The notes under the pieces: model-generated
Database searches by the model: none
The model's input: the letters and a program-made list of their open reading frames with translations, nothing else
Told to the model about the DNA's origin: nothing
Position numbers and translations under genes: made by a program
UHGV virus genome: UHGV-1366603
DNA length: 64,000 bases
Strand: one strand, 5' to 3'
Origin: a virus
Shown: piece after piece, positions 973 to 47,720 of the stretch
How the letters are laid out: each line of letters starts with the position of its first letter
Numbering within the stretch: the stretch's first letter is position 1

Positions 973-3900
973 TTAATCGCGAATGATTACCGCCTGCACT
1001 TTATTGTTGGTGTCGATAAACGACATTACGCGCTCCTTGTTAAGATAAGGAGGTATCGGTAACGCAGCGTAATCCGCCAGGTTGTTATTAAACTCGGTTG
1101 CCACTAGCGCATTAAGCGTTTCGGGGTCTGAGCTTGTCCCGGCCAATTCCATGACACGTACACGATTTAACGAGGAGTAGTTGCTAATATAATCCAGCAG
1201 CGTACCGTAGAGTTTGTTCCCGGTTATGCTGTCTGCCGTAGAACGGATATTAGCACGCACTTCGTCCTCATAAAGTCCCCCTAAACCGTAGTAAATAGGG
1301 GTGTACGGATCGTTAACGATAGGTGCAATATTGAACCCGGTTAAACGGTCGCTTAGTGGGATTTTCTGCGTAGTGCCGCCTGCTGCTGTACAGCTTACGT
1401 ATTTATCTACCGCAGACAAGTACACCACGATAGTGTAAACGGTACCTGCTAAGGTCAGCGATGCGTTAAACGTTAAGTCGTTATTCGCACCACGCGTGTG
1501 TGTAAAAGTCACATCGGGTTGTAACGTACTCCACGGTGCAGGTGTAACACGTTTGGTGGGCGTGAAGCCTAACACCACAGATTTCCCGTTACCGAAGTTT
1601 AAACCAAACCCGGCGTAACAATACTCGCCGTTGCTATCAGTTAACCGATAACCACGGGTGACAAGTAACGACAACCGCATAAACTCGCCATCGGTGTTTT
1701 TCCAGCAACCCAGGACGGTTTCTAGCACCGTTCCGGTTTTTGCGTTGCTTTCGGTTTCCCAACTGACTCGCATCCCCGCATTGTTAAATACTGGGAACAA
1801 GTTGTGGATAAACCCGTGAACGTTATCACTTACCCCTTTCGCATCAAACACCCACTTCGACGCAAGCTGGTCGTATTTCACACCATCGAGTGCTTTATAT
1901 CCACCGCCAACCACATAACGCCAATCTGCCTCGCCACGCACAACCGCTTGAAGTCCAGAAGCCCAGCAGGGCGCACCTACTGTTAAATTGCTTAACCCCA
2001 GCACTGCACGCGGAGCAGAACGCTGAATATGTGCGTTGTCATTAGCGACGTGGTCTTTCAATTCACGGAAATCGCCTAACCGTGTCACGTTACGTAGTTC
2101 AGTAACGAACACTTCAGAAAGGTCGTTAATACCGATCAGCCCCACGCGCGTCATGGTATCCGTTTCAGCCTGACTGTAGCTGTCGTGAATAATATACTTC
2201 GCTTTGTTATCGACAATGTCAACAAAAATCCCTGCGTAAATTTCCTTATTCAGATTCGGGAAACGTTCAGTGACGTTAACCGACATCAACGGCACGTCGT
2301 ACGTTTCGCCGCCAATGAAATACGTGGAAGCAGGAAGTGTCACCAGGATTTTGTCTTTAACCGTAACGTCAATTAGGTCGTTACCGGACTTACCAAAGCG
2401 AATAATGTCAACGCGAGCACCCGAGTCAACCCCACCGACGGTATTCTCCAAATCTTCAATCTGGGAAGTCTGCGCCATCACCACACTACCATCGAGTGCT
2501 AAGGTGACATCATCCACATCCAGACCGAACTTAATCAGACCCCGTTTCGTGGTGTCTGCGTTTTCAACACCGAACACAGAAGACGGGTGTTGGTGAACCT
2601 TCGGTGAGTATTTGTCTAACTCAGTCTGTTGTGCAACAGAAATCGGTAAGTCAACGTCCGGGGTATTCGCAACGTTACCTAAACCAAAGGTAATTTTGTC
2701 GATAGTAACCGAACTGGTAAGCTGCATGTCGTTGATGTACGACTTGGCAGCAACCAACTTACCAGTAAACTCTGCGTCCAGTTTTTCAATTAGCGCAGGA
2801 GTCGCCGCGAGGTTTTCAGCCGTACCAAACTCGTCAGTCAACTGCCAACACGCTAACGTAGTAACGTCTTCGGCAACCGGAAGGATAAACGTTGCGACAA
2901 ACGGCGATGCTTTAATCCCGCTACCGGTAAGTTCCACCGTAGACGTCGACGCACCGTAGAACAGACCTGTACCGCCTGCGGTATTACCCGGCAAATACGG
3001 ACCGACCGTAGTGGGGTCTAAGAGCTTCTTACCACGCCACAACAATCCACGGTCATCGGGGTATAGCACAAGCTGGTTACCGCCTGCTTGTAACGTAACA
3101 GGGTTATTACCCACGTTAACATCGGTAGAACCTTGACCGATGAACTTAATGGATTTCGGATCAACGACGAACTGGGCACCTAAACGTTTTTCGTCAACTA
3201 CACCAGGTGCTTTCTTAATGGTAACCGTGTTACCTTTGTTTTGCGAACTAATAGAGACGCCGTCAGCAACATTATTGATCAGCGATTTAAAGTGATGCTG
3301 ATTCTCTAATGCTTCTAACGCAGCGTCCATGTTATCGAAGTTAATCCGGGAGCTATACGTTTTACCGTTTAAGCTAATAACGGCGTCAAACACGTTCCCT
3401 GTACGCTTCAGTTGAAAACGCAGCGTAAAATCCCCATCCGGTATTGCTGGATCAGGAGCTTGAGAAATGTACCGAACTGACGGTACCGGATTCCCGTAAC
3501 CGTGCAACGACAGTTCGATAGTAAGAGTACCACTCCGGACTTCACCGAAAATCTCTACGTACTTACCGGAGTTACTACCGGGATTTTCGTAGAAACGTAA
3601 ACCGGCCCTACCGACTGCCTCATTACCAGACGCTGTTTTACGTCCAGTAACAATAAAGTCAATATCTTGCAGGCTGGCGGGTACCGCGTTAAAAGAAGCA
3701 CTAAATCCATTCTTCGTTCCTGTGTAACGAAGTGCGCCGTGATACGTGCGACCTTGACTAACATAGCTTTCGCTAAAATAAGGATTCACGTATTTAGACA
3801 TCGAAACCGGATCAACTTCTGTCGTGAACGAAGTAAAACCGGATAGCGTTCCAATGGTTCCGTCGGCCGTTTTCGTAGTTGACGTGCGCAGTAGTTTCTT

Positions 3901-5295
3901 TTGCGCAGTCAATGTTGCTTGCGTTGGATACTTAGCATTAACATAATCTGTTAACTGCGGCTTCGTTTTTCCGTAAGCTAACGCTGCATCCGTCGCAATA
4001 CCATTCAACTCTAACGCACGAATCGGGCCCCAAGTGTCAGCGTGTGGGTTATCCTTACGAGTGACGTGTTCGTGTGCAGGGGCGTTGCGATAGAGTTGTT
4101 CTACTAACTGATGGTACTTAACGATTAGCTGATAAACGTCATTACTTACGTCGGCTTCTGGCGCACCAGGTAACGCAAGGAATTGAGCGTAATCGTTTTC
4201 AGCCGCCCACCAGTTTAAGTTAACGTTGGTTTTGTATTTCAGCCACTTCGCAACGTCGGTTTTGCTGTAACCTGCTGAGAATTCGTCTGGCGGTGTGTCA
4301 ACGTTAAACGTATAGTCCATGGACTGTTTGTTAGTCGTTACCTCGATAACGTATACACCATTACCCGGCTGACGAACGACACTAAACGTTAACTCGCCTT
4401 TTAATTCATCGTCGGTCAAACCGTTGATTAACGTATAATCGTAATCGGTCGAACCACTGCCTAACGCAACCGTTAGACGTAGGCCGATTTTACGTTGTTT
4501 TAATTGGAGACGAAGGATACTTGCGCCACCGTTCGCGTAACACAACATCCAATCGATTTGTTCGTTCGGATTAATACTCCCCATATTCGGAAAAATAGCC
4601 GGAATGCGGTATTTCATCGACAGGGAATATTCATTTAACGTGGTGGTTTTGTACGTAACAGAGAAACGACGTTTAGCGGTATTGTAAGTATACCCACCTT
4701 TGTTGTCGTACGTTGCGTACTGTTCAGACGTGATAACCGTGCCATTAGCGCGATGCTCGATATCTAACGTGTTACGTGCAATCGGGTCTACCCGATTCAC
4801 CACGTTACCTAACGAATCACCTAAGCCTGCAATGGCCTGCATTAATTCCAGTTCACCTTTCCAGTTTTCCCAGTCAAACTGAATATCAACCGGTGGAAAG
4901 TAAACGTCTCCGATAACGGTATCCCATTGACACGCAGACGGGTATTTATCTTTATTGAGTTCGCGTTCTGCGGTAATCTGTTCTTGGGTCGCTTCACCAC
5001 AACCTACGGCGTGGTAATCTACCGTGAAATTCGATTTGTATTTGTCGTTAACAATCCAAATCATCCCGTGCACGAGATAGGCTGTGCGCAACATACCGGT
5101 CTCGTACGGGTGTGTAATAACGTAATCGTCGCCTAAGGTCAGTATTTTGCCGCCGCTCTTGACCACCAGGGATGTGGTGAAAAAAGGGGCGTGGGCAGGT
5201 ACCAACATTCGGTACTTCGTACCAATGACGGCGACCGCTTCACCGGTTATTTTATTCCCCGGTTCTTTGAAGTGTGGGTCTAGGACGACAGCCAT
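973..5295 (-). CDS. large tail fibre / tailspike-like virion protein (1440 aa)
   Basis: ORF track. N-terminal domain (..AHAPFFTTSLVV..GDDYV..) is shared with the upstream partial gene. Size and Gly/Thr/Asn-rich repetitive body are typical of fibre proteins. No enzymatic motif recognised. Confidence 0.6.
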   Translation of the reverse strand: MAVVLDPHFKEPGNKITGEAVAVIGTKYRMLVPAHAPFFTTSLVVKSGGKILTLGDDYVITHPYETGMLRTAYLVHGMIWIVNDKYKSNFTVDYHAVGCGEATQEQITAERELNKDKYPSACQWDTVIGDVYFPPVDIQFDWENWKGELELMQAIAGLGDSLGNVVNRVDPIARNTLDIEHRANGTVITSEQYATYDNKGGYTYNTAKRRFSVTYKTTTLNEYSLSMKYRIPAIFPNMGSINPNEQIDWMLCYANGGASILRLQLKQRKIGLRLTVALGSGSTDYDYTLINGLTDDELKGELTFSVVRQPGNGVYVIEVTTNKQSMDYTFNVDTPPDEFSAGYSKTDVAKWLKYKTNVNLNWWAAENDYAQFLALPGAPEADVSNDVYQLIVKYHQLVEQLYRNAPAHEHVTRKDNPHADTWGPIRALELNGIATDAALAYGKTKPQLTDYVNAKYPTQATLTAQKKLLRTSTTKTADGTIGTLSGFTSFTTEVDPVSMSKYVNPYFSESYVSQGRTYHGALRYTGTKNGFSASFNAVPASLQDIDFIVTGRKTASGNEAVGRAGLRFYENPGSNSGKYVEIFGEVRSGTLTIELSLHGYGNPVPSVRYISQAPDPAIPDGDFTLRFQLKRTGNVFDAVISLNGKTYSSRINFDNMDAALEALENQHHFKSLINNVADGVSISSQNKGNTVTIKKAPGVVDEKRLGAQFVVDPKSIKFIGQGSTDVNVGNNPVTLQAGGNQLVLYPDDRGLLWRGKKLLDPTTVGPYLPGNTAGGTGLFYGASTSTVELTGSGIKASPFVATFILPVAEDVTTLACWQLTDEFGTAENLAATPALIEKLDAEFTGKLVAAKSYINDMQLTSSVTIDKITFGLGNVANTPDVDLPISVAQQTELDKYSPKVHQHPSSVFGVENADTTKRGLIKFGLDVDDVTLALDGSVVMAQTSQIEDLENTVGGVDSGARVDIIRFGKSGNDLIDVTVKDKILVTLPASTYFIGGETYDVPLMSVNVTERFPNLNKEIYAGIFVDIVDNKAKYIIHDSYSQAETDTMTRVGLIGINDLSEVFVTELRNVTRLGDFRELKDHVANDNAHIQRSAPRAVLGLSNLTVGAPCWASGLQAVVRGEADWRYVVGGGYKALDGVKYDQLASKWVFDAKGVSDNVHGFIHNLFPVFNNAGMRVSWETESNAKTGTVLETVLGCWKNTDGEFMRLSLLVTRGYRLTDSNGEYCYAGFGLNFGNGKSVVLGFTPTKRVTPAPWSTLQPDVTFTHTRGANNDLTFNASLTLAGTVYTIVVYLSAVDKYVSCTAAGGTTQKIPLSDRLTGFNIAPIVNDPYTPIYYGLGGLYEDEVRANIRSTADSITGNKLYGTLLDYISNYSSLNRVRVMELAGTSSDPETLNALVATEFNNNLADYAALPIPPYLNKERVMSFIDTNNKVQAVIIRD

Positions 5296-42952: not shown

Positions 42953-42958
42953 CACCTA

Positions 42959-42997
42959 CCCTACTCCTGTCTGGGAGTAGGGTATTTTCATTTTTTA
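42959..42997 (+). terminator. rho-independent terminator (CCCTACTCC-loop-GGAGTAGGG + T-run)
   Basis: Third copy of the identical CCCTACTCC/GGAGTAGGG stem, followed by TATTTTCATTTTTT. Confidence 0.6.
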
Positions 42998-43448: not shown

Positions 43449-43859
43449 ATGCGTGAACATATCCTCGATCTTAGTGTTTCTGTAGAAGAACTTGTCAATC
43501 AACTTGGCGGCACGGGTCATGGTCTTCATTCAAAGACGAACAGTATAAGCCATCTCCTCGACCCAGAGTACGAACGAAAACTCCACATGATCGCAACCGT
43601 TCGTAACAAAGCCATGCACGAGAATATTCTCCCTACCAACATTCAAGCCTTTGAACAAGCCGTAGCAGATACAAAAGTTTATTTGCTTGACCTCTGTTTG
43701 CGCCAAGAAAACCCTAGCCAGTCGGAACCCAAAGAGCCGGGTAAAAGAAAGCTTGGGTGGTCTGAAATGAATAAGAAGCAAAGAATCTATTACGGTATCG
43801 GTATTGCTATCGGCTGTGTCGCTATTGGTATTTTCGGTATAACAGGACCTAAAAGATGA
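43449..43859 (+). CDS. hypothetical protein with C-terminal TM anchor (136 aa)
   Basis: C-terminal hydrophobic segment IYYGIGIAIGCVAIGIFGI. Confidence 0.55.
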   Translation: MREHILDLSVSVEELVNQLGGTGHGLHSKTNSISHLLDPEYERKLHMIATVRNKAMHENILPTNIQAFEQAVADTKVYLLDLCLRQENPSQSEPKEPGKRKLGWSEMNKKQRIYYGIGIAIGCVAIGIFGITGPKR

Positions 43860-44401
43860 AACTCGTAAACATGACGGACGAGGTTTCTAAGTTTATTGTT
43901 TTCTTAGAAAACCAAAATGTAAAGCCGGGTGAGAACATTGACGAATGGATGCTTAGACTACACAGCACGATAGGTAAAGTGTGTGGGTCAATCACCTCAA
44001 TCGACAGTTTAGGTCTGGCCAGAAACATTGGGGTAGCCTTTTGGGATATTGCTGCTTTTGTCTACGTTACTAATAAAGGAAACTTACACCCGTTCTTAAG
44101 CTCTCTGGTAAGGATGAATGGGGTTCGTAAATGGAGCAACGACCCTATCGTGATACAGGGAAGTAAATTAGTTAACGCGGCAGTACGAACTATTGCTCTT
44201 GGGCAATGCCGTACGGGAAAATACACGGACAAATGTGAGATAGAACTCACGACGTTAACTTATCGCCTGGCGTCTGTTGCCAGAACCAACGGCTTAGTCG
44301 TAGACCGCGTTATCAAAAACGGTCGCGAGACGTGGGTTAAGGAACAAAACAAAGGCGATTTTCTCTCTTATCTTGAATTACACAAAATGATTAAAGGATA
44401 A
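43856..44401 (+). CDS. hypothetical protein (181 aa)
   Basis: ORF track; start overlaps the upstream stop. Confidence 0.55.
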   Translation: MKLVNMTDEVSKFIVFLENQNVKPGENIDEWMLRLHSTIGKVCGSITSIDSLGLARNIGVAFWDIAAFVYVTNKGNLHPFLSSLVRMNGVRKWSNDPIVIQGSKLVNAAVRTIALGQCRTGKYTDKCEIELTTLTYRLASVARTNGLVVDRVIKNGRETWVKEQNKGDFLSYLELHKMIKG

Positions 44402-44409
44402 TCAGTACG

Positions 44410-44718
44410 ATGGAAAACTATTCGGGTTGGGCAATTTCGCAGTGCATTGGCTATTCTTTACGTTCTTTAGTGCGTACACTTTATAACAAAAACTCAGGTG
44501 AAGCTATTACACCACAGTTACTGGGCAAATTGGAAGTCGAAGTTAACCACAAATTAAAGCAGTTACTCGACAACCACGTAAGAACAATGCGTTGGGAGTT
44601 TTTGTTGCGTGGTAAGAAGCCGTCAATTACTGTTGTGGCAGAAGGCAGTGAAATTGTTCTCCAATCCAACGCAGACCTGTTTGAAATTTTAACTGAACTC
44701 GAAAAGGACAAAATCTGA
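44410..44718 (+). CDS. hypothetical protein (102 aa)
   Basis: ORF track. Confidence 0.5.
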
Positions 44719-45752
44719 TGAAACAGTATTTAGCGTTAATGCAAGACATTCTGGATAACGGCGTTGTCAAGAAAGACCGTACAGGCGTAGGGACACTTTC
44801 TGTATTTGGCCGTCAACTACGTTTTGACCTGAAAGAAGGTTTCCCATTAGTTACTACGAAAAAGGTTCACCTGAAAAGTATCATTCATGAACTGCTGTGG
44901 TTCTTAAACGGTGACACTAACGTGAAGTACCTGCAAGAGAATGGGGTAAGAATTTGGAACGAATGGAGTGATGAAGAGGGGAACTTAGGGCCAGTATATG
45001 GTAAACAATGGCGCGAATGGCGCGACTGTAAAGTTGTGGAATGTCACGATGTAGGACGTACACAACAACTAATGCAGCTCGGTTACAAGTATATTGGGAA
45101 CATAAAGGAAGACGGTACGACGTATTTGGTCTATGAAAAAGCACATGACCAGATCAGTAAAGTTATCCAACAACTTCGTGAAGACCCAGATTCTCGCCGC
45201 ATTATTGTTAGTGCCTGGAACGTAGCCGACCTGGACGACATGGCACTTAACCCATGCCACAACTATTTCCAATTCTACACTACAGAAATGACACTGCTTG
45301 AACGACTGGATTGGTACGAAGTAAACGAGCCGGAAAAATTTGCGAGCGCACCGCTTATTAATCACGAAGATATTGATGATGAAGAGCGGCTTCAAGAAAC
45401 TTTAGATCGTGAGGGCATTCCACGCCGTAAGCTTTCATGTTTTTACATGATGCGGAGCAACGATTACCTACTCGGCGCGCCATTTAACATCGCTTCCTAC
45501 GCTCTGTTAACCTATATGGTTGCACAGCAGTTGAACATGGTTCCAGACGAACTCGTTTACAGCGGCGTAGATGTTCATCTGTACTCTAACCATCTGGAGC
45601 AAGCAAAACTTCAGCTTACACGCGAACCATACCCGTTACCTAAACTGGTTATCAAACGTAAACCTGATTCTATCTTCGATTACAAATACGAAGACTTCGA
45701 ATTAGTCGGCTATCAAGCACATCCACATATTGCGGCCCCCGTCGCAGTATAA
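44718..45752 (+). CDS. thyA: thymidylate synthase (ThyA-family) with two insertions
   Basis: N-terminal ~100 aa close to enterobacterial ThyA ([45 protein letters not shown]); catalytic NPCH and [10 protein letters not shown] present; C-terminus ..[28 protein letters not shown]..; extra segments at ~45020-45125 and ~45300-45440. Confidence 0.85.
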
Positions 45753-46834: not shown

Positions 46835-47665
46835 ATGGGCGAACGTTTTAACATCAACGCTATTTACAACATCGTAGTTAATCCTGGTCAGCACCTGGAA
46901 GAAGTTAACGCGCAACTGCGTGCTCTGAATGAGAAGGCAATACAGTTCGACGCCATTTACACAATCGGTGTAAACCCTGGTACCAATCGTATTCGCGTGG
47001 AAGGTAAACGACACACCGGCACTCAAGAACTGGACATCGAAACGATTGAAGCACCGATTAAACTTACTGATGCTGTTTATAACGGTACAGTAATGCACAC
47101 CGTATCGGTTCCGGTCTATTCTATTGCGAACTGTGCAGAACATGTTAAAGGTTGGTCTAAAGAACGCGGCATCCTCGATAACGGTAAACTGGAAACTCAA
47201 ATCACGAAATTCTTTGAAGAGTTTGGTGAAATTGCAACGGGTATCAGTAAAAACAAACCTGATTTGATCATGGACGGGATCGGCGATGCGTTAGTGGTTT
47301 TAGTGAACATCCTGGAGCTGGGTAAAGACAAACTGTCTGGAGAAATGACAACCGCTGAAATCATCGAGCACGGTTTACAGTTGCAGGTAGATGATGTCGC
47401 TGACGTTGAAGAACATTTTGATGACAACGGGTATCCACATCATTTGTATCTCCACGCTACCGAAATCTTCGCTACCGCATTTATTCGCTCCGATGCTGGG
47501 TTCGATCAGCTTAACTGGGCTTTGTACCGCCTTGCAAAACTGGCTCTCTACTATCGTCTTGACATTCGTCATTGTTTCTCTTTAGCCTGGCACGAAATCA
47601 AAGACCGTAAAGGTTACCTGAACGCCGACGGCATCTTTGTAAAAGAAGCAGACTTGGCGAAATAA
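46835..47665 (+). CDS. MazG-like nucleoside triphosphate pyrophosphohydrolase domain protein with N-terminal extension
   Basis: ..KFFEEFGEIATG..(x10)..LIMDGIGDALVVLVNILELG.. matches the MazG EExxE ... E/DxxGD helix pair. Confidence 0.6.
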   Translation: MGERFNINAIYNIVVNPGQHLEEVNAQLRALNEKAIQFDAIYTIGVNPGTNRIRVEGKRHTGTQELDIETIEAPIKLTDAVYNGTVMHTVSVPVYSIANCAEHVKGWSKERGILDNGKLETQITKFFEEFGEIATGISKNKPDLIMDGIGDALVVLVNILELGKDKLSGEMTTAEIIEHGLQLQVDDVADVEEHFDDNGYPHHLYLHATEIFATAFIRSDAGFDQLNWALYRLAKLALYYRLDIRHCFSLAWHEIKDRKGYLNADGIFVKEADLAK

Positions 47666-47673
47666 ATAAAAGT

Positions 47674-47720
47674 ACCTACCTCCGAAAGGAGGTAGGTTAA
47701 CTTTCTTTTTTTCTTTTTTT
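47674..47720. terminator. bidirectional terminator (CCTACCTCC-GAAA-GGAGGTAGG, T-runs both sides)
   Basis: Between convergent genes 46835..47665 and 47719..48282. Confidence 0.6.

What the first reader, a model, noticed from the sequence alone, without database searches (positions are those of the whole stretch)
44718..45752. ThyA-family enzyme with two insertions and a changed folate-site residue
The N-terminal third is very close to enterobacterial ThyA, and the catalytic Cys (NPCH) and dUMP-specifying Asn (PFNIASY) are present. Relative to E. coli ThyA there are extra segments of roughly 34 aa (coding ~45020-45125) and 45 aa (~45300-45440), and the position matching E. coli Cys168 in the RSCDV motif is Asn (RSNDY). 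In other phages ThyA homologues are repurposed as dUMP hydroxymethylases feeding hypermodified thymidine pathways. No kinase or transferase partner is visible nearby, so either activity is possible.
Basis: partly seen in the sequence, partly recalled or inferred. Interest (0 to 1): 0.5.

Follow-up and report, generated by a model that had tools for sequence, protein, structure and literature searches.

The report
Jumbo-phage thymidylate synthase with two insertions
This gene encodes an ordinary dTMP-making thymidylate synthase of a nucleus-forming jumbo phage. Its two extra surface segments are an old, shared trait of that phage family's enzyme, not a sign of a DNA-hypermodification pathway.

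Summary
ORF 44718-45752 (+) encodes a 344-aa ThyA-family protein (Pfam PF00303, E 2.9e-110). Against E. coli ThyA it has two insertions: residues 103-142 (net +34) and 190-236 (net +46). Asn sits at the position of E. coli Cys168.

The interpretation that either activity is possible is not supported. The protein is 66% identical to E. coli ThyA and 19-24% identical to four hydroxymethylases: SPO1 gp29, M6 gp58, a ViI-like homologue and T4 gp42. It keeps every residue that separates dTMP synthases from them: Leu143, His147, Trp80/Trp83, Asp169, Asn177 and the C-terminal PVAV. Position 168 is variable. Asn occurs there in the solved B. subtilis ThyA and co-varies with loss of Gln165. A 96%-identical 222-kb relative encodes a dihydrofolate reductase.

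The window is a Seoulvirus-like jumbo phage, matching the proposed 'Bapsvirus'. Both insertions are shared by SPN3US-like, Goslar, Erwinia and phiKZ-like phage enzymes and by many metagenomic ones. Insertion 1 also occurs in the solved Burkholderia thailandensis ThyA (3V8H). Insertion 2, a helical extension of a beta-hairpin, has no solved counterpart and no known role.

Verdict: a new member of a known enzyme kind, of low interest.

The parts
44718..45752 (+). thyA-type thymidylate synthase gene, 344 codons plus stop. Its ATG overlaps the TGA of the upstream 102-aa ORF (TGATG), which suggests translational coupling.
45024..45143 (+). Insertion 1 (residues 103-142). It enlarges the variable 'small domain' loop after the GKQWR motif. 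The model predicts strand-helix-strand-strand.
45285..45425 (+). Insertion 2 (residues 190-236). It is a helical insertion in the beta-hairpin between the strand that starts at catalytic Cys180 and the strand that ends at Arg246. Conserved frame: FQFYTxE(L/M)(S/T)xxER ... LDxxx(I/V)PxRxLSC.
   Evidence: Boundaries. Predicted helices at 193-203, 205-210 and 222-231, with a low-confidence loop at about 211-221. The motif is conserved in 30 diverse representatives. tblastn finds it in SPN3US-like, Erwinia, Cronobacter and phiKZ-like phages. No solved counterpart was found.
45246..45260 (+). Active-site motif L177-N-P-C180-H181 (= Ec Leu143-Ala144-Pro145-Cys146-His147). The catalytic nucleophile is present, along with the hydrophobic Leu that marks methyl-forming enzymes.
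   Evidence: diagnostic role of Ec143 from PMC13326640
45450..45464 (+). M245-R246-S247-N248-D249 (= Ec Gln165-Arg166-Ser167-Cys168-Asp169). The phosphate-binding Arg/Ser and the pterin-binding Asp are kept. The Gln165->Met / Cys168->Asn pair is a co-varying swap.
   Evidence: non-Gln at 165 goes with a polar residue at 168: 30/45 vs 2/104, Fisher 5e-18
45486..45488 (+). Asn257 (= Ec Asn177), the dUMP-specifying residue.
   Evidence: PMC13326640
45738..45749 (+). C-terminal P-V-A-V. This is the conserved carboxy-terminus of dTMP synthases and is absent from all four hydroxymethylases compared.
46835..47665 (+). Context only: a MazG-like nucleoside-triphosphate pyrophosphohydrolase gene. It lies in the same terminator-bounded unit (terminator-like sites at 42957-42984 and 47674-47697).

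Best explanation
The gene encodes a catalytically conventional ThyA-class thymidylate synthase (EC 2.1.1.45). Cys180 attacks C6 of dUMP. The methylene of 5,10-methylene-tetrahydrofolate is transferred to C5 and then reduced by hydride from the cofactor, giving dTMP and dihydrofolate. The phage's own dihydrofolate reductase recycles the dihydrofolate. This supplies thymidylate for replication of a roughly 222-kb nucleus-forming jumbo phage (Chimalliviridae, 'Bapsvirus'-like). By analogy with Pseudomonas relatives, the enzyme probably works in the cytoplasm, outside the phage nucleus.

The two insertions are peripheral and inherited, not active-site changes. Insertion 1 is a small alpha/beta addition to the variable small domain, and it also occurs in a cellular Burkholderia ThyA. 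Insertion 2 is a helical extension at the tip of the beta-hairpin that runs away from the catalytic Cys and back. By strand topology it lies well away from the active site, at the edge of the sheet that forms the dimer interface.

Shown here: family membership, the residue signature, the distribution of the insertions, the predicted fold, and DHFR in the lineage. Inferred: enzymatic activity, cytoplasmic location, and that the insertions serve stability or protein contacts rather than chemistry.
For: Sequence family: Pfam full length, E 2.9e-110. NCBIfam equivalog above its cut-off. 66% identity to E. coli ThyA over all 264 aligned positions.

Residue signature: Arg21, Glu58, Trp80, Trp83, Tyr94, Arg126/127, Leu143, Cys146, His147, Arg166, Ser167, Asp169, Asn177, His207, Tyr209 and the C-terminal PVAV are all present. 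The four hydroxymethylases differ at 143, 147, 80/83 and the C-terminus. The criteria for 143, 169 and 177 come from PMC13326640.

Conservation: the 13 residues checked (Ec143, 144, 146-148, 164-166, 168, 169, 177, 201, 204) are invariant in 120 close relatives, except Ec164 (Met in 103, Leu in 17). All 120 are 344 aa. The core is under strong purifying selection, pN/pS 0.05 against the E. coli-borne relative.

Genome context: a relative that is 96% identical over 97.5% of the window encodes dihydrofolate reductase. Seoulvirus phages carry DHFR, TS and thymidylate kinase (PMC6614189). TS and DHFR co-occur across jumbo phages (PMC7824862).

Insertions: they are shared by Seoulvirus, Goslarvirus, Erwinia, Cronobacter and phiKZ-like phages. 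The BFVD best match is the 201phi2-1 TS, query-normalised TM-score 0.92. Insertion 1 is present in solved 3V8H.

Location: TS-GFP is excluded from the phage nucleus in Pseudomonas relatives (PMC9067925).
Against: No biochemical or genetic test of this protein, or of any insertion-bearing homologue, was found. No nucleoside analysis of this lineage's DNA was found.

This clade differs from SPN3US and E. coli at several residues near the active site: Ala144Asn, Ala148Asn, Tyr164Met, Gln165Met, Trp201Tyr and Gly204Val. All of these positions vary among thymidylate-synthase representatives.

The relative's genome also holds an NT5C-type 5'-nucleotidase, a MazG-like pyrophosphatase and two radical SAM genes. 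Enzymes of those kinds also occur in thymine-replacing phages.

The location of insertion 2 relative to the dimer interface is inferred from topology.
Confidence: 0.9

Rival explanations
1. The protein is a dUMP hydroxymethylase. Water, not hydride, would resolve the exocyclic methylene intermediate, giving 5-hmdUMP as the precursor of hypermodified thymidine, as in SPO1, ViI and M6.
For: ThyA homologues do this in other phages (PMC8989533). Asn at Ec168 and a non-Gln residue at Ec165 also occur in SPO1 gp29, M6 gp58 and T4 gp42. The lineage has MazG-like, NT5C-type nucleotidase and radical SAM genes.
Against: It has Leu, not Asp, at Ec143 and His, not Asn/Thr, at Ec147. Trp80 and Trp83 are kept, as is the C-terminal PVAV. 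Identity to SPO1 gp29, M6 gp58 and the ViI-like enzyme is only 19-23%.

The SPO1 gp29-like clade (627 phage records at E<=1e-10) showed no roughly 220-250-kb jumbo phage among the 40 rows listed. The other 587 records were not inspected.

The lineage encodes DHFR, which a hydroxymethylase does not need. No kinase gene lies next to it, unlike the ViI-like locus, where a kinase and a dNMP kinase flank the homologue. DNA-modification systems are reported as uncommon in Chimalliviridae (PMC13282480).
Confidence: 0.03
2. The protein is a synthase with relaxed or shifted pyrimidine specificity. Loss of Gln165 would free the Asn177 amide, allowing some dCMP methylation or another C5 product. (From memory, not tested: Gln165 holds the Asn177 amide in the dUMP-reading orientation.)
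For: Gln165 is Met here and invariant in 120 close relatives. Goslar has also lost it. T4 dCMP hydroxymethylase has Met-Arg-Ser-Asn at the same four positions.
Against: Asn177 itself is kept, whereas dCMP-using enzymes have Asp there (PMC13326640). B. subtilis ThyA, a solved protein deposited as thymidylate synthase A, has Ala165/Asn168. 45 of 150 thymidylate-synthase representatives lack Gln165, and two thirds of those have a polar residue at 168, which suggests a compensated swap. Asp169 is kept, so it does not carry the 5-hydroxy-dCMP synthase signature.
Confidence: 0.03
3. The insertions are remnants of mobile elements (a mini-intein, an in-frame intron or homing-endonuclease relic) with no function of their own.
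For: Phage thyA genes are known targets of introns and homing endonucleases. In phiKZ-like SL2 the thyA CDS stops at ...LSCQLYQR and a GIY-YIG nuclease gene follows. Some metagenomic enzymes have 190-280 aa at site 1, and two of the four such proteins scanned gave weak I-HmuI-NUMOD matches.
Against: The segments are only 40 and 47 aa. Both are confidently folded in the model apart from one loop. Insertion 1 is a structured element of a solved cellular enzyme. Insertion 2 has a conserved sequence frame across very diverse proteins. All 120 close relatives keep the same length.
Confidence: 0.04

Closest known systems
E. coli ThyA (thymidylate synthase, e.g. PDB 2TSC / 1AOB)
   Same: 66% identity over all 264 aligned residues. 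Catalytic and substrate-binding residues and the C-terminus are the same. The fold superposes with a target-normalised TM-score of 0.96.
   Different: 80 extra residues in two insertions. Substitutions at Ec144, 148, 164, 165, 168, 201 and 204.
Thymidylate synthases of Chimalliviridae jumbo phages (SPN3US gp229, Goslar gp141, Erwinia phages, phiKZ gp235-type, 201phi2-1)
   Same: The same two insertions at the same sites. Identity is 58-65% to the enterobacterial jumbo phages. The neighbourhood is syntenic with SPN3US. Query-normalised TM-score is 0.92 to the 201phi2-1 model.
   Different: SPN3US keeps the E. coli-like Gln165/Tyr164/Ala144, and this lineage does not. phiKZ-like and P. syringae phage enzymes carry a further ~112-aa insertion at the L. 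casei site. In SL2 the gene is interrupted after Arg166.
Burkholderia thailandensis ThyA, PDB 3V8H (NCBIfam NF010393 / PRK13821 type)
   Different: 38% identity. Insertion 2 appears to be lacking, inferred from the profile match lengths and from the absence of 3V8H in the insertion-2 search.
Bacillus subtilis ThyA / phage phi3T-type thymidylate synthase (PDB 1B02, 1BKO)
   Same: A solved protein deposited as thymidylate synthase with the same 'RSND' motif, and without Gln at Ec165.
   Different: 39% identity. Neither of the two insertions is present, and Ec147 is Val.
dUMP / dCMP hydroxymethylases (SPO1 gp29, M6 gp58, ViI-like gp121, T4 gp42)
   Same: Same superfamily fold. Catalytic Cys, Glu58, Tyr94, Arg166, Ser167, Asp169, His207 and Tyr209 are shared. 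Three of the four also have Asn at Ec168; the ViI-like enzyme has Gln.

Membership tests
ThyA-class thymidylate synthase (EC 2.1.1.45) | Full-length match to the family profile above curated cut-offs | tested here: met
   Pfam PF00303: 368 bits against a cut-off of 24.3, covering 1-266 of 266 profile positions. NCBIfam equivalog NF002499: 412 against 405. TIGR03284: 341 against 108.
ThyA-class thymidylate synthase (EC 2.1.1.45) | Catalytic Cys (Ec146) with His147, Glu58 and Tyr94; phosphate-binding Arg21, Arg126', Arg127', Arg166 and Ser167 | tested here: met
   All are present. Of these, Cys146, His147 and Arg166 were checked in 120 close relatives and are invariant.
ThyA-class thymidylate synthase (EC 2.1.1.45) | dUMP-specifying Asn177 | tested here: met
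   Asn257.
ThyA-class thymidylate synthase (EC 2.1.1.45) | Folate-site residues Asp169, Trp80, Trp83 and the C-terminal (P)VA(I/V) carboxylate that closes over the cofactor | tested here: met
   Asp249, Trp80, Trp83 and the C-terminus APVAV.
ThyA-class thymidylate synthase (EC 2.1.1.45) | Hydrophobic residue at Ec143 that excludes water, giving a methyl rather than a hydroxymethyl product | tested here: met
   Leu177. The criterion is from PMC13326640. All 150 representatives have Leu.
ThyA-class thymidylate synthase (EC 2.1.1.45) | TS fold | tested here: met
ThyA-class thymidylate synthase (EC 2.1.1.45) | A dihydrofolate-recycling partner (DHFR) is available | tested here: met
   DHFR is annotated at 97030-97566 of NZ_CP173450.1. 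That genome is 96% identical to the window over 97.5% of its length. The DHFR gene lies outside the 64-kb window itself.
ThyA-class thymidylate synthase (EC 2.1.1.45) | Catalytic activity: dUMP + CH2-THF -> dTMP + DHF | not testable with these tools
   This needs an enzyme assay or thyA complementation.
dUMP hydroxymethylase (SPO1 gp29 type) | Acidic residue at Ec143 and a non-His residue at Ec147 | tested here: not met
   The window has Leu and His. SPO1 gp29, M6 gp58 and the ViI-like gp121 have Asp and Asn.
dUMP hydroxymethylase (SPO1 gp29 type) | Sequence clustering with verified members | tested here: not met
   19-23% identity to SPO1 gp29, M6 gp58 and the ViI-like gp121. The PHROG and NCBIfam best hits are thymidylate-synthase families.
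dUMP hydroxymethylase (SPO1 gp29 type) | Linked genes for 5-hmdUMP use (dNMP kinase, 5-HMU DNA kinase, transferases) and for dTTP/dTMP depletion | tested here: inconclusive
   Pfam and PHROGs found no such gene in ten neighbours. None is annotated in the 222-kb relative apart from a MazG-like gene and an NT5C nucleotidase. tblastn with the ViI-like and SPO1 partner proteins found nothing, but that test is weak: it did not detect the TS homologue either.
dCMP hydroxymethylase / 5-hydroxy-dCMP synthase | Asp at Ec177 (dCMP use); Asn at Ec169 (5-hydroxy-dCMP synthases) | tested here: not met
   Asn at 177 and Asp at 169. The criteria are from PMC13326640.

The most novel reading that the evidence does not exclude
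Insertion 2 may be a dedicated interaction module rather than passive decoration. It is a ~47-aa helical hairpin with no solved counterpart, conserved in frame across Chimalliviridae and a large metagenomic clade of thymidylate synthases. It could tether the enzyme to DHFR or nucleotide kinases in a phage dNTP-synthesising complex near the phage nucleus. It could instead shield the dimer from a host factor. Less likely, the Gln165Met/Asn168 remodelling in this lineage could loosen pyrimidine specificity.
Probability: 0.12. Interest if true: 0.5.

Novelty: new member of a known kind. Interest (0 to 1): 0.2.

Why it matters
The practical value is in annotation. The gene should stay 'thymidylate synthase', and this widespread enterobacterial jumbo-phage lineage should not be listed as a candidate thymidine-hypermodifying phage on this evidence. 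The residue table also gives a quick test for telling dTMP synthases from dUMP/dCMP hydroxymethylases in phage genomes. It uses Ec143, 147, 80/83, 169, 177 and the C-terminus.

The one open point is insertion 2. It is an unstudied, structurally uncharacterised element shared by the thymidylate synthases of nucleus-forming phages. If it mediates a specific interaction, it would bear on how these phages organise nucleotide supply outside the phage nucleus.

Tried and rejected
- Near-identity DNA search of the gene in the phage collection found nothing. The lineage is absent from INPHARED but present as 'plasmids'.
- The listing of cluster members on ten insertion-bearing representatives gave no names or hosts.
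- Per-region selection: only 3 synonymous and 3 non-synonymous differences fall in the insertions between the window and the E. coli-borne relative. Constraint on the insertions could not be measured that way.
- PDB sequence searches with P0155, P0242 and the insertion-2 segment found no solved structure containing insertion 2.
- The AFDB50 fold library was unavailable, so the occurrence of insertion 2 in cellular organisms was not surveyed.
- Model coordinates could not be read, so distances from the insertions to the active site and the dimer interface were not measured.
- tblastn of ViI-like and SPO1 nucleotide-pathway proteins against the window and the relative's genome gave no hits. The test is insensitive.
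- Considered and rejected: intein (segments too short, no splicing motifs); in-frame intron (protein-level conservation and a confident fold); pseudogene (intact ORF, pN/pS 0.05 in the core).

Full report
**What is there.** ORF 44718..45752 on the + strand encodes 344 residues. Its ATG overlaps the TGA of the preceding 102-aa ORF (TGATG). It lies in a run of same-strand genes between terminator-like hairpins at 42957-42984 and 47674-47697. It matches Pfam Thymidylat_synt end to end (E 2.9e-110). It also exceeds the curated cut-off of an NCBIfam thymidylate-synthase equivalog (412 vs 405 bits).

Against E. coli ThyA chains the alignment breaks into three blocks: 1-102 = 1-102, 143-189 = 109-155 and 237-344 = 157-264. 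This fixes insertion 1 at residues 103-142 (nt 45024-45143, net +34 aa) and insertion 2 at residues 190-236 (nt 45285-45425, net +46 aa).

**Where the window comes from.** The best phage matches by tblastn are thymidylate synthases of about 240-kb jumbo phages: SPN3US and other Seoulvirus, Goslar, Proteus phage 7 and Erwinia phages. They show 58-65% identity, each over the whole query. The surrounding gene order matches SPN3US.

No phage record matches at the DNA level. The protein does have more than 100 relatives at 95-100% identity on roughly 222-kb contigs labelled Salmonella, E. coli or Shigella. A circular 221,873-bp 'plasmid' of E. coli 98232 is 96% identical to the window over 97.5% of its length. 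This fits the proposed Chimalliviridae genus 'Bapsvirus', found in bacterial assemblies (PMC12768965).

**Synthase or hydroxymethylase.** I aligned the protein with two solved thymidylate synthases and four hydroxymethylases or hydroxymethylase homologues.
- The synthases were E. coli ThyA and B. subtilis ThyA (PDB 1B02).
- SPO1 gp29 is annotated as dUMP hydroxymethylase.
- M6 gp58 and a ViI-like gp121 come from phage groups whose DNA derives from 5-hmdU according to PMC8989533.
- T4 gp42 is the dCMP hydroxymethylase (PDB 1B5E).

All four hydroxymethylases have Asp at Ec143 and Asn or Thr at Ec147. They lack Trp80 and Trp83, and they end in unrelated sequence. The window protein has Leu, His, Trp, Trp and a C-terminal APVAV, like the synthases. 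It also keeps Arg21, Glu58, Tyr94, Arg126/127, Cys146, Arg166, Ser167, Asp169, Asn177, His207 and Tyr209.

The dTMP reaction consumes tetrahydrofolate reducing power and needs dihydrofolate reductase. The hydroxymethylase reaction does not (PMC4528723). The 222-kb relative encodes a DHFR, and Seoulvirus phages carry DHFR, TS and thymidylate kinase (PMC6614189). In a ViI-like phage the homologue sits between a kinase and a dNMP kinase. Nothing comparable flanks this gene.

**The 'changed folate-site residue'.** Ec168 is not a conserved or folate-contacting position. It is Ala in most jumbo-phage homologues, Gln in Goslar and Cys in E. coli. Among 150 representatives of 50%-identity clusters it is A64/V21/N17/C13/S9/G8 and others. 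The same 'RSND' occurs in B. subtilis ThyA, solved and deposited as thymidylate synthase A, and in T4 gp42. It therefore does not discriminate between the two activities.

Among the representatives, a polar residue at 168 accompanies a non-Gln 165 in 30 of 45 cases, against 2 of 104 with Gln165 (Fisher 5e-18; the sequences are not phylogenetically independent). This looks like a compensated pair. The other departures of this lineage from SPN3US (Ec144, 148, 164, 201, 204) are all at positions that vary among representatives.

**The insertions.** Both are inherited features, not novelties of this phage.
- They are present in SPN3US, Goslar and four Erwinia or Salmonella jumbo phages. They are also present in phiKZ-like SL2 and the P. 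syringae phage Viktualia, which add a third ~112-aa insertion.
- tblastn with insertion 2 alone recovers 52 records, all jumbo phages of Salmonella, Erwinia, Cronobacter, Escherichia, Proteus or Pseudomonas.
- Among the 150 closest representatives, 110 have at least 25 residues at site 2, 94 have at least 20 at site 1, and 72 have both. This ranking favours sequences that share the insertions, because the query contained them.
- Insertion 2 has a recognisable frame, FQFYTxELSxxER ... LDxxx(I/V)P(K/R)RxLSC, around a variable middle.

The AlphaFold2 model, built on 57 sequences, has pLDDT 94.7 and pTM 0.92. It folds insertion 1 as strand-helix-strand-strand. It folds insertion 2 as three helices with one low-confidence loop.

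Insertion 2 has no solved counterpart in the sequence searches run. Its best structural match is the predicted TS of phage 201phi2-1, with a query-normalised TM-score of 0.92, against 0.74 for E. coli TS.

By strand topology, insertion 2 sits at the far tip of the hairpin that begins at the catalytic Cys and returns to Arg166. That places it away from the active site, at the margin of the sheet that forms the dimer interface. This is inference, because I could not read the coordinates. The insertions vary more than the core among close relatives (34-43% variable sites, against 17-32%) but never change length. In the Enterobacter-borne relative, insertion 1 is strongly diverged while the core is almost unchanged.

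**Mechanism and verdict.** The best-supported reading is a conventional thymidylate synthase supplying dTMP for jumbo-phage replication and paired with the phage DHFR. By analogy with Pseudomonas relatives, where TS-GFP is excluded from the phage nucleus, it probably acts in the cytoplasm (PMC9067925). The insertions are peripheral and lineage-wide. Their role is unknown, and I found no paper describing them.

The hydroxymethylase reading fails its defining residue tests. The gene is a new member (about 64% identical to its nearest named relatives) of a known kind. The only loose end worth an experiment is whether insertion 2 has a specific partner.

Noticed in passing
whole window 1-64000: The window is 96% identical over 97.5% of its length to a circular 221,873-bp 'plasmid' of E. 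coli 98232 (NZ_CP173450.1). It is also related to a 222,441-bp Enterobacter ludwigii 'plasmid'. More than 100 near-identical TS variants sit on roughly 222-kb contigs in Salmonella, E. coli or Shigella assemblies. This matches the proposed carrier-state jumbo-phage genus 'Bapsvirus' (PMC12768965).
   Followed up: yes
L013 (Pseudomonas phage SL2, NC_042081.1 53242-55200): In this phiKZ-like phage the annotated thyA CDS stops right after ...LSCQLYQR (Ec Arg166), and a GIY-YIG nuclease gene follows. Other phiKZ-like records label the gene 'thyA_1'. This points to a split gene or an intron with a homing endonuclease at the conserved RS(x)D site.
   Followed up: partly
window 43856-44401 and 44410-44718: Two adjacent ORFs (181 and 102 aa) match the N-terminal and C-terminal parts of one PHROG (phrog_10269, 299 positions). 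At the syntenic position SPN3US has a single 290-aa gene (SPN3US_0228). So the gene appears split in this lineage. The MazG-like protein at 46835-47665 also weakly matches the start of that PHROG.
   Followed up: partly
window 43673-44409 and the junction at 44718: The stretch 43673-44409 has no blastn match in the otherwise collinear E. coli-borne relative. That relative carries an extra 313-bp ORF (106 aa) between the 102-aa ORF and thyA, which the window lacks. The region just upstream of thyA is therefore an indel hot spot.
   Followed up: partly
window 46835-47665: A 276-aa protein with a C-terminal MazG-like NTP pyrophosphohydrolase domain (PHROG 7855, E 6e-72; Pfam MazG just below its cut-off) lies in the same terminator-bounded unit as thyA. 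It may feed or police the dNTP pool, but its substrate is unknown.
   Followed up: partly
NZ_CP173450.1 28603-30724, 169521-170072, 61340-62155 (outside the window): The close relative encodes two adjacent radical SAM proteins, an NT5C-type 5'-nucleotidase and a DNA adenine methylase. Their roles were not examined.
   Followed up: no
L015 (Enterobacter ludwigii NZ_CP134650.1) 3001-4026: The thyA of this relative has a nearly identical core. Its insertion 1 is strongly diverged (closer in sequence to Erwinia phage Parshik) and its insertion 2 is 3 aa shorter. This suggests mosaic exchange or fast evolution confined to the insertions.
   Followed up: partly
proteins P0129, P0132, P0140, P0147, P0158 and others: Many metagenomic thymidylate synthases carry 190-280 extra residues at insertion site 1, or 70-216 at the L. 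casei site. Two of the four site-1 examples scanned (P0132, P0147) gave weak I-HmuI NUMOD-like (homing-endonuclease) matches.
   Followed up: partly
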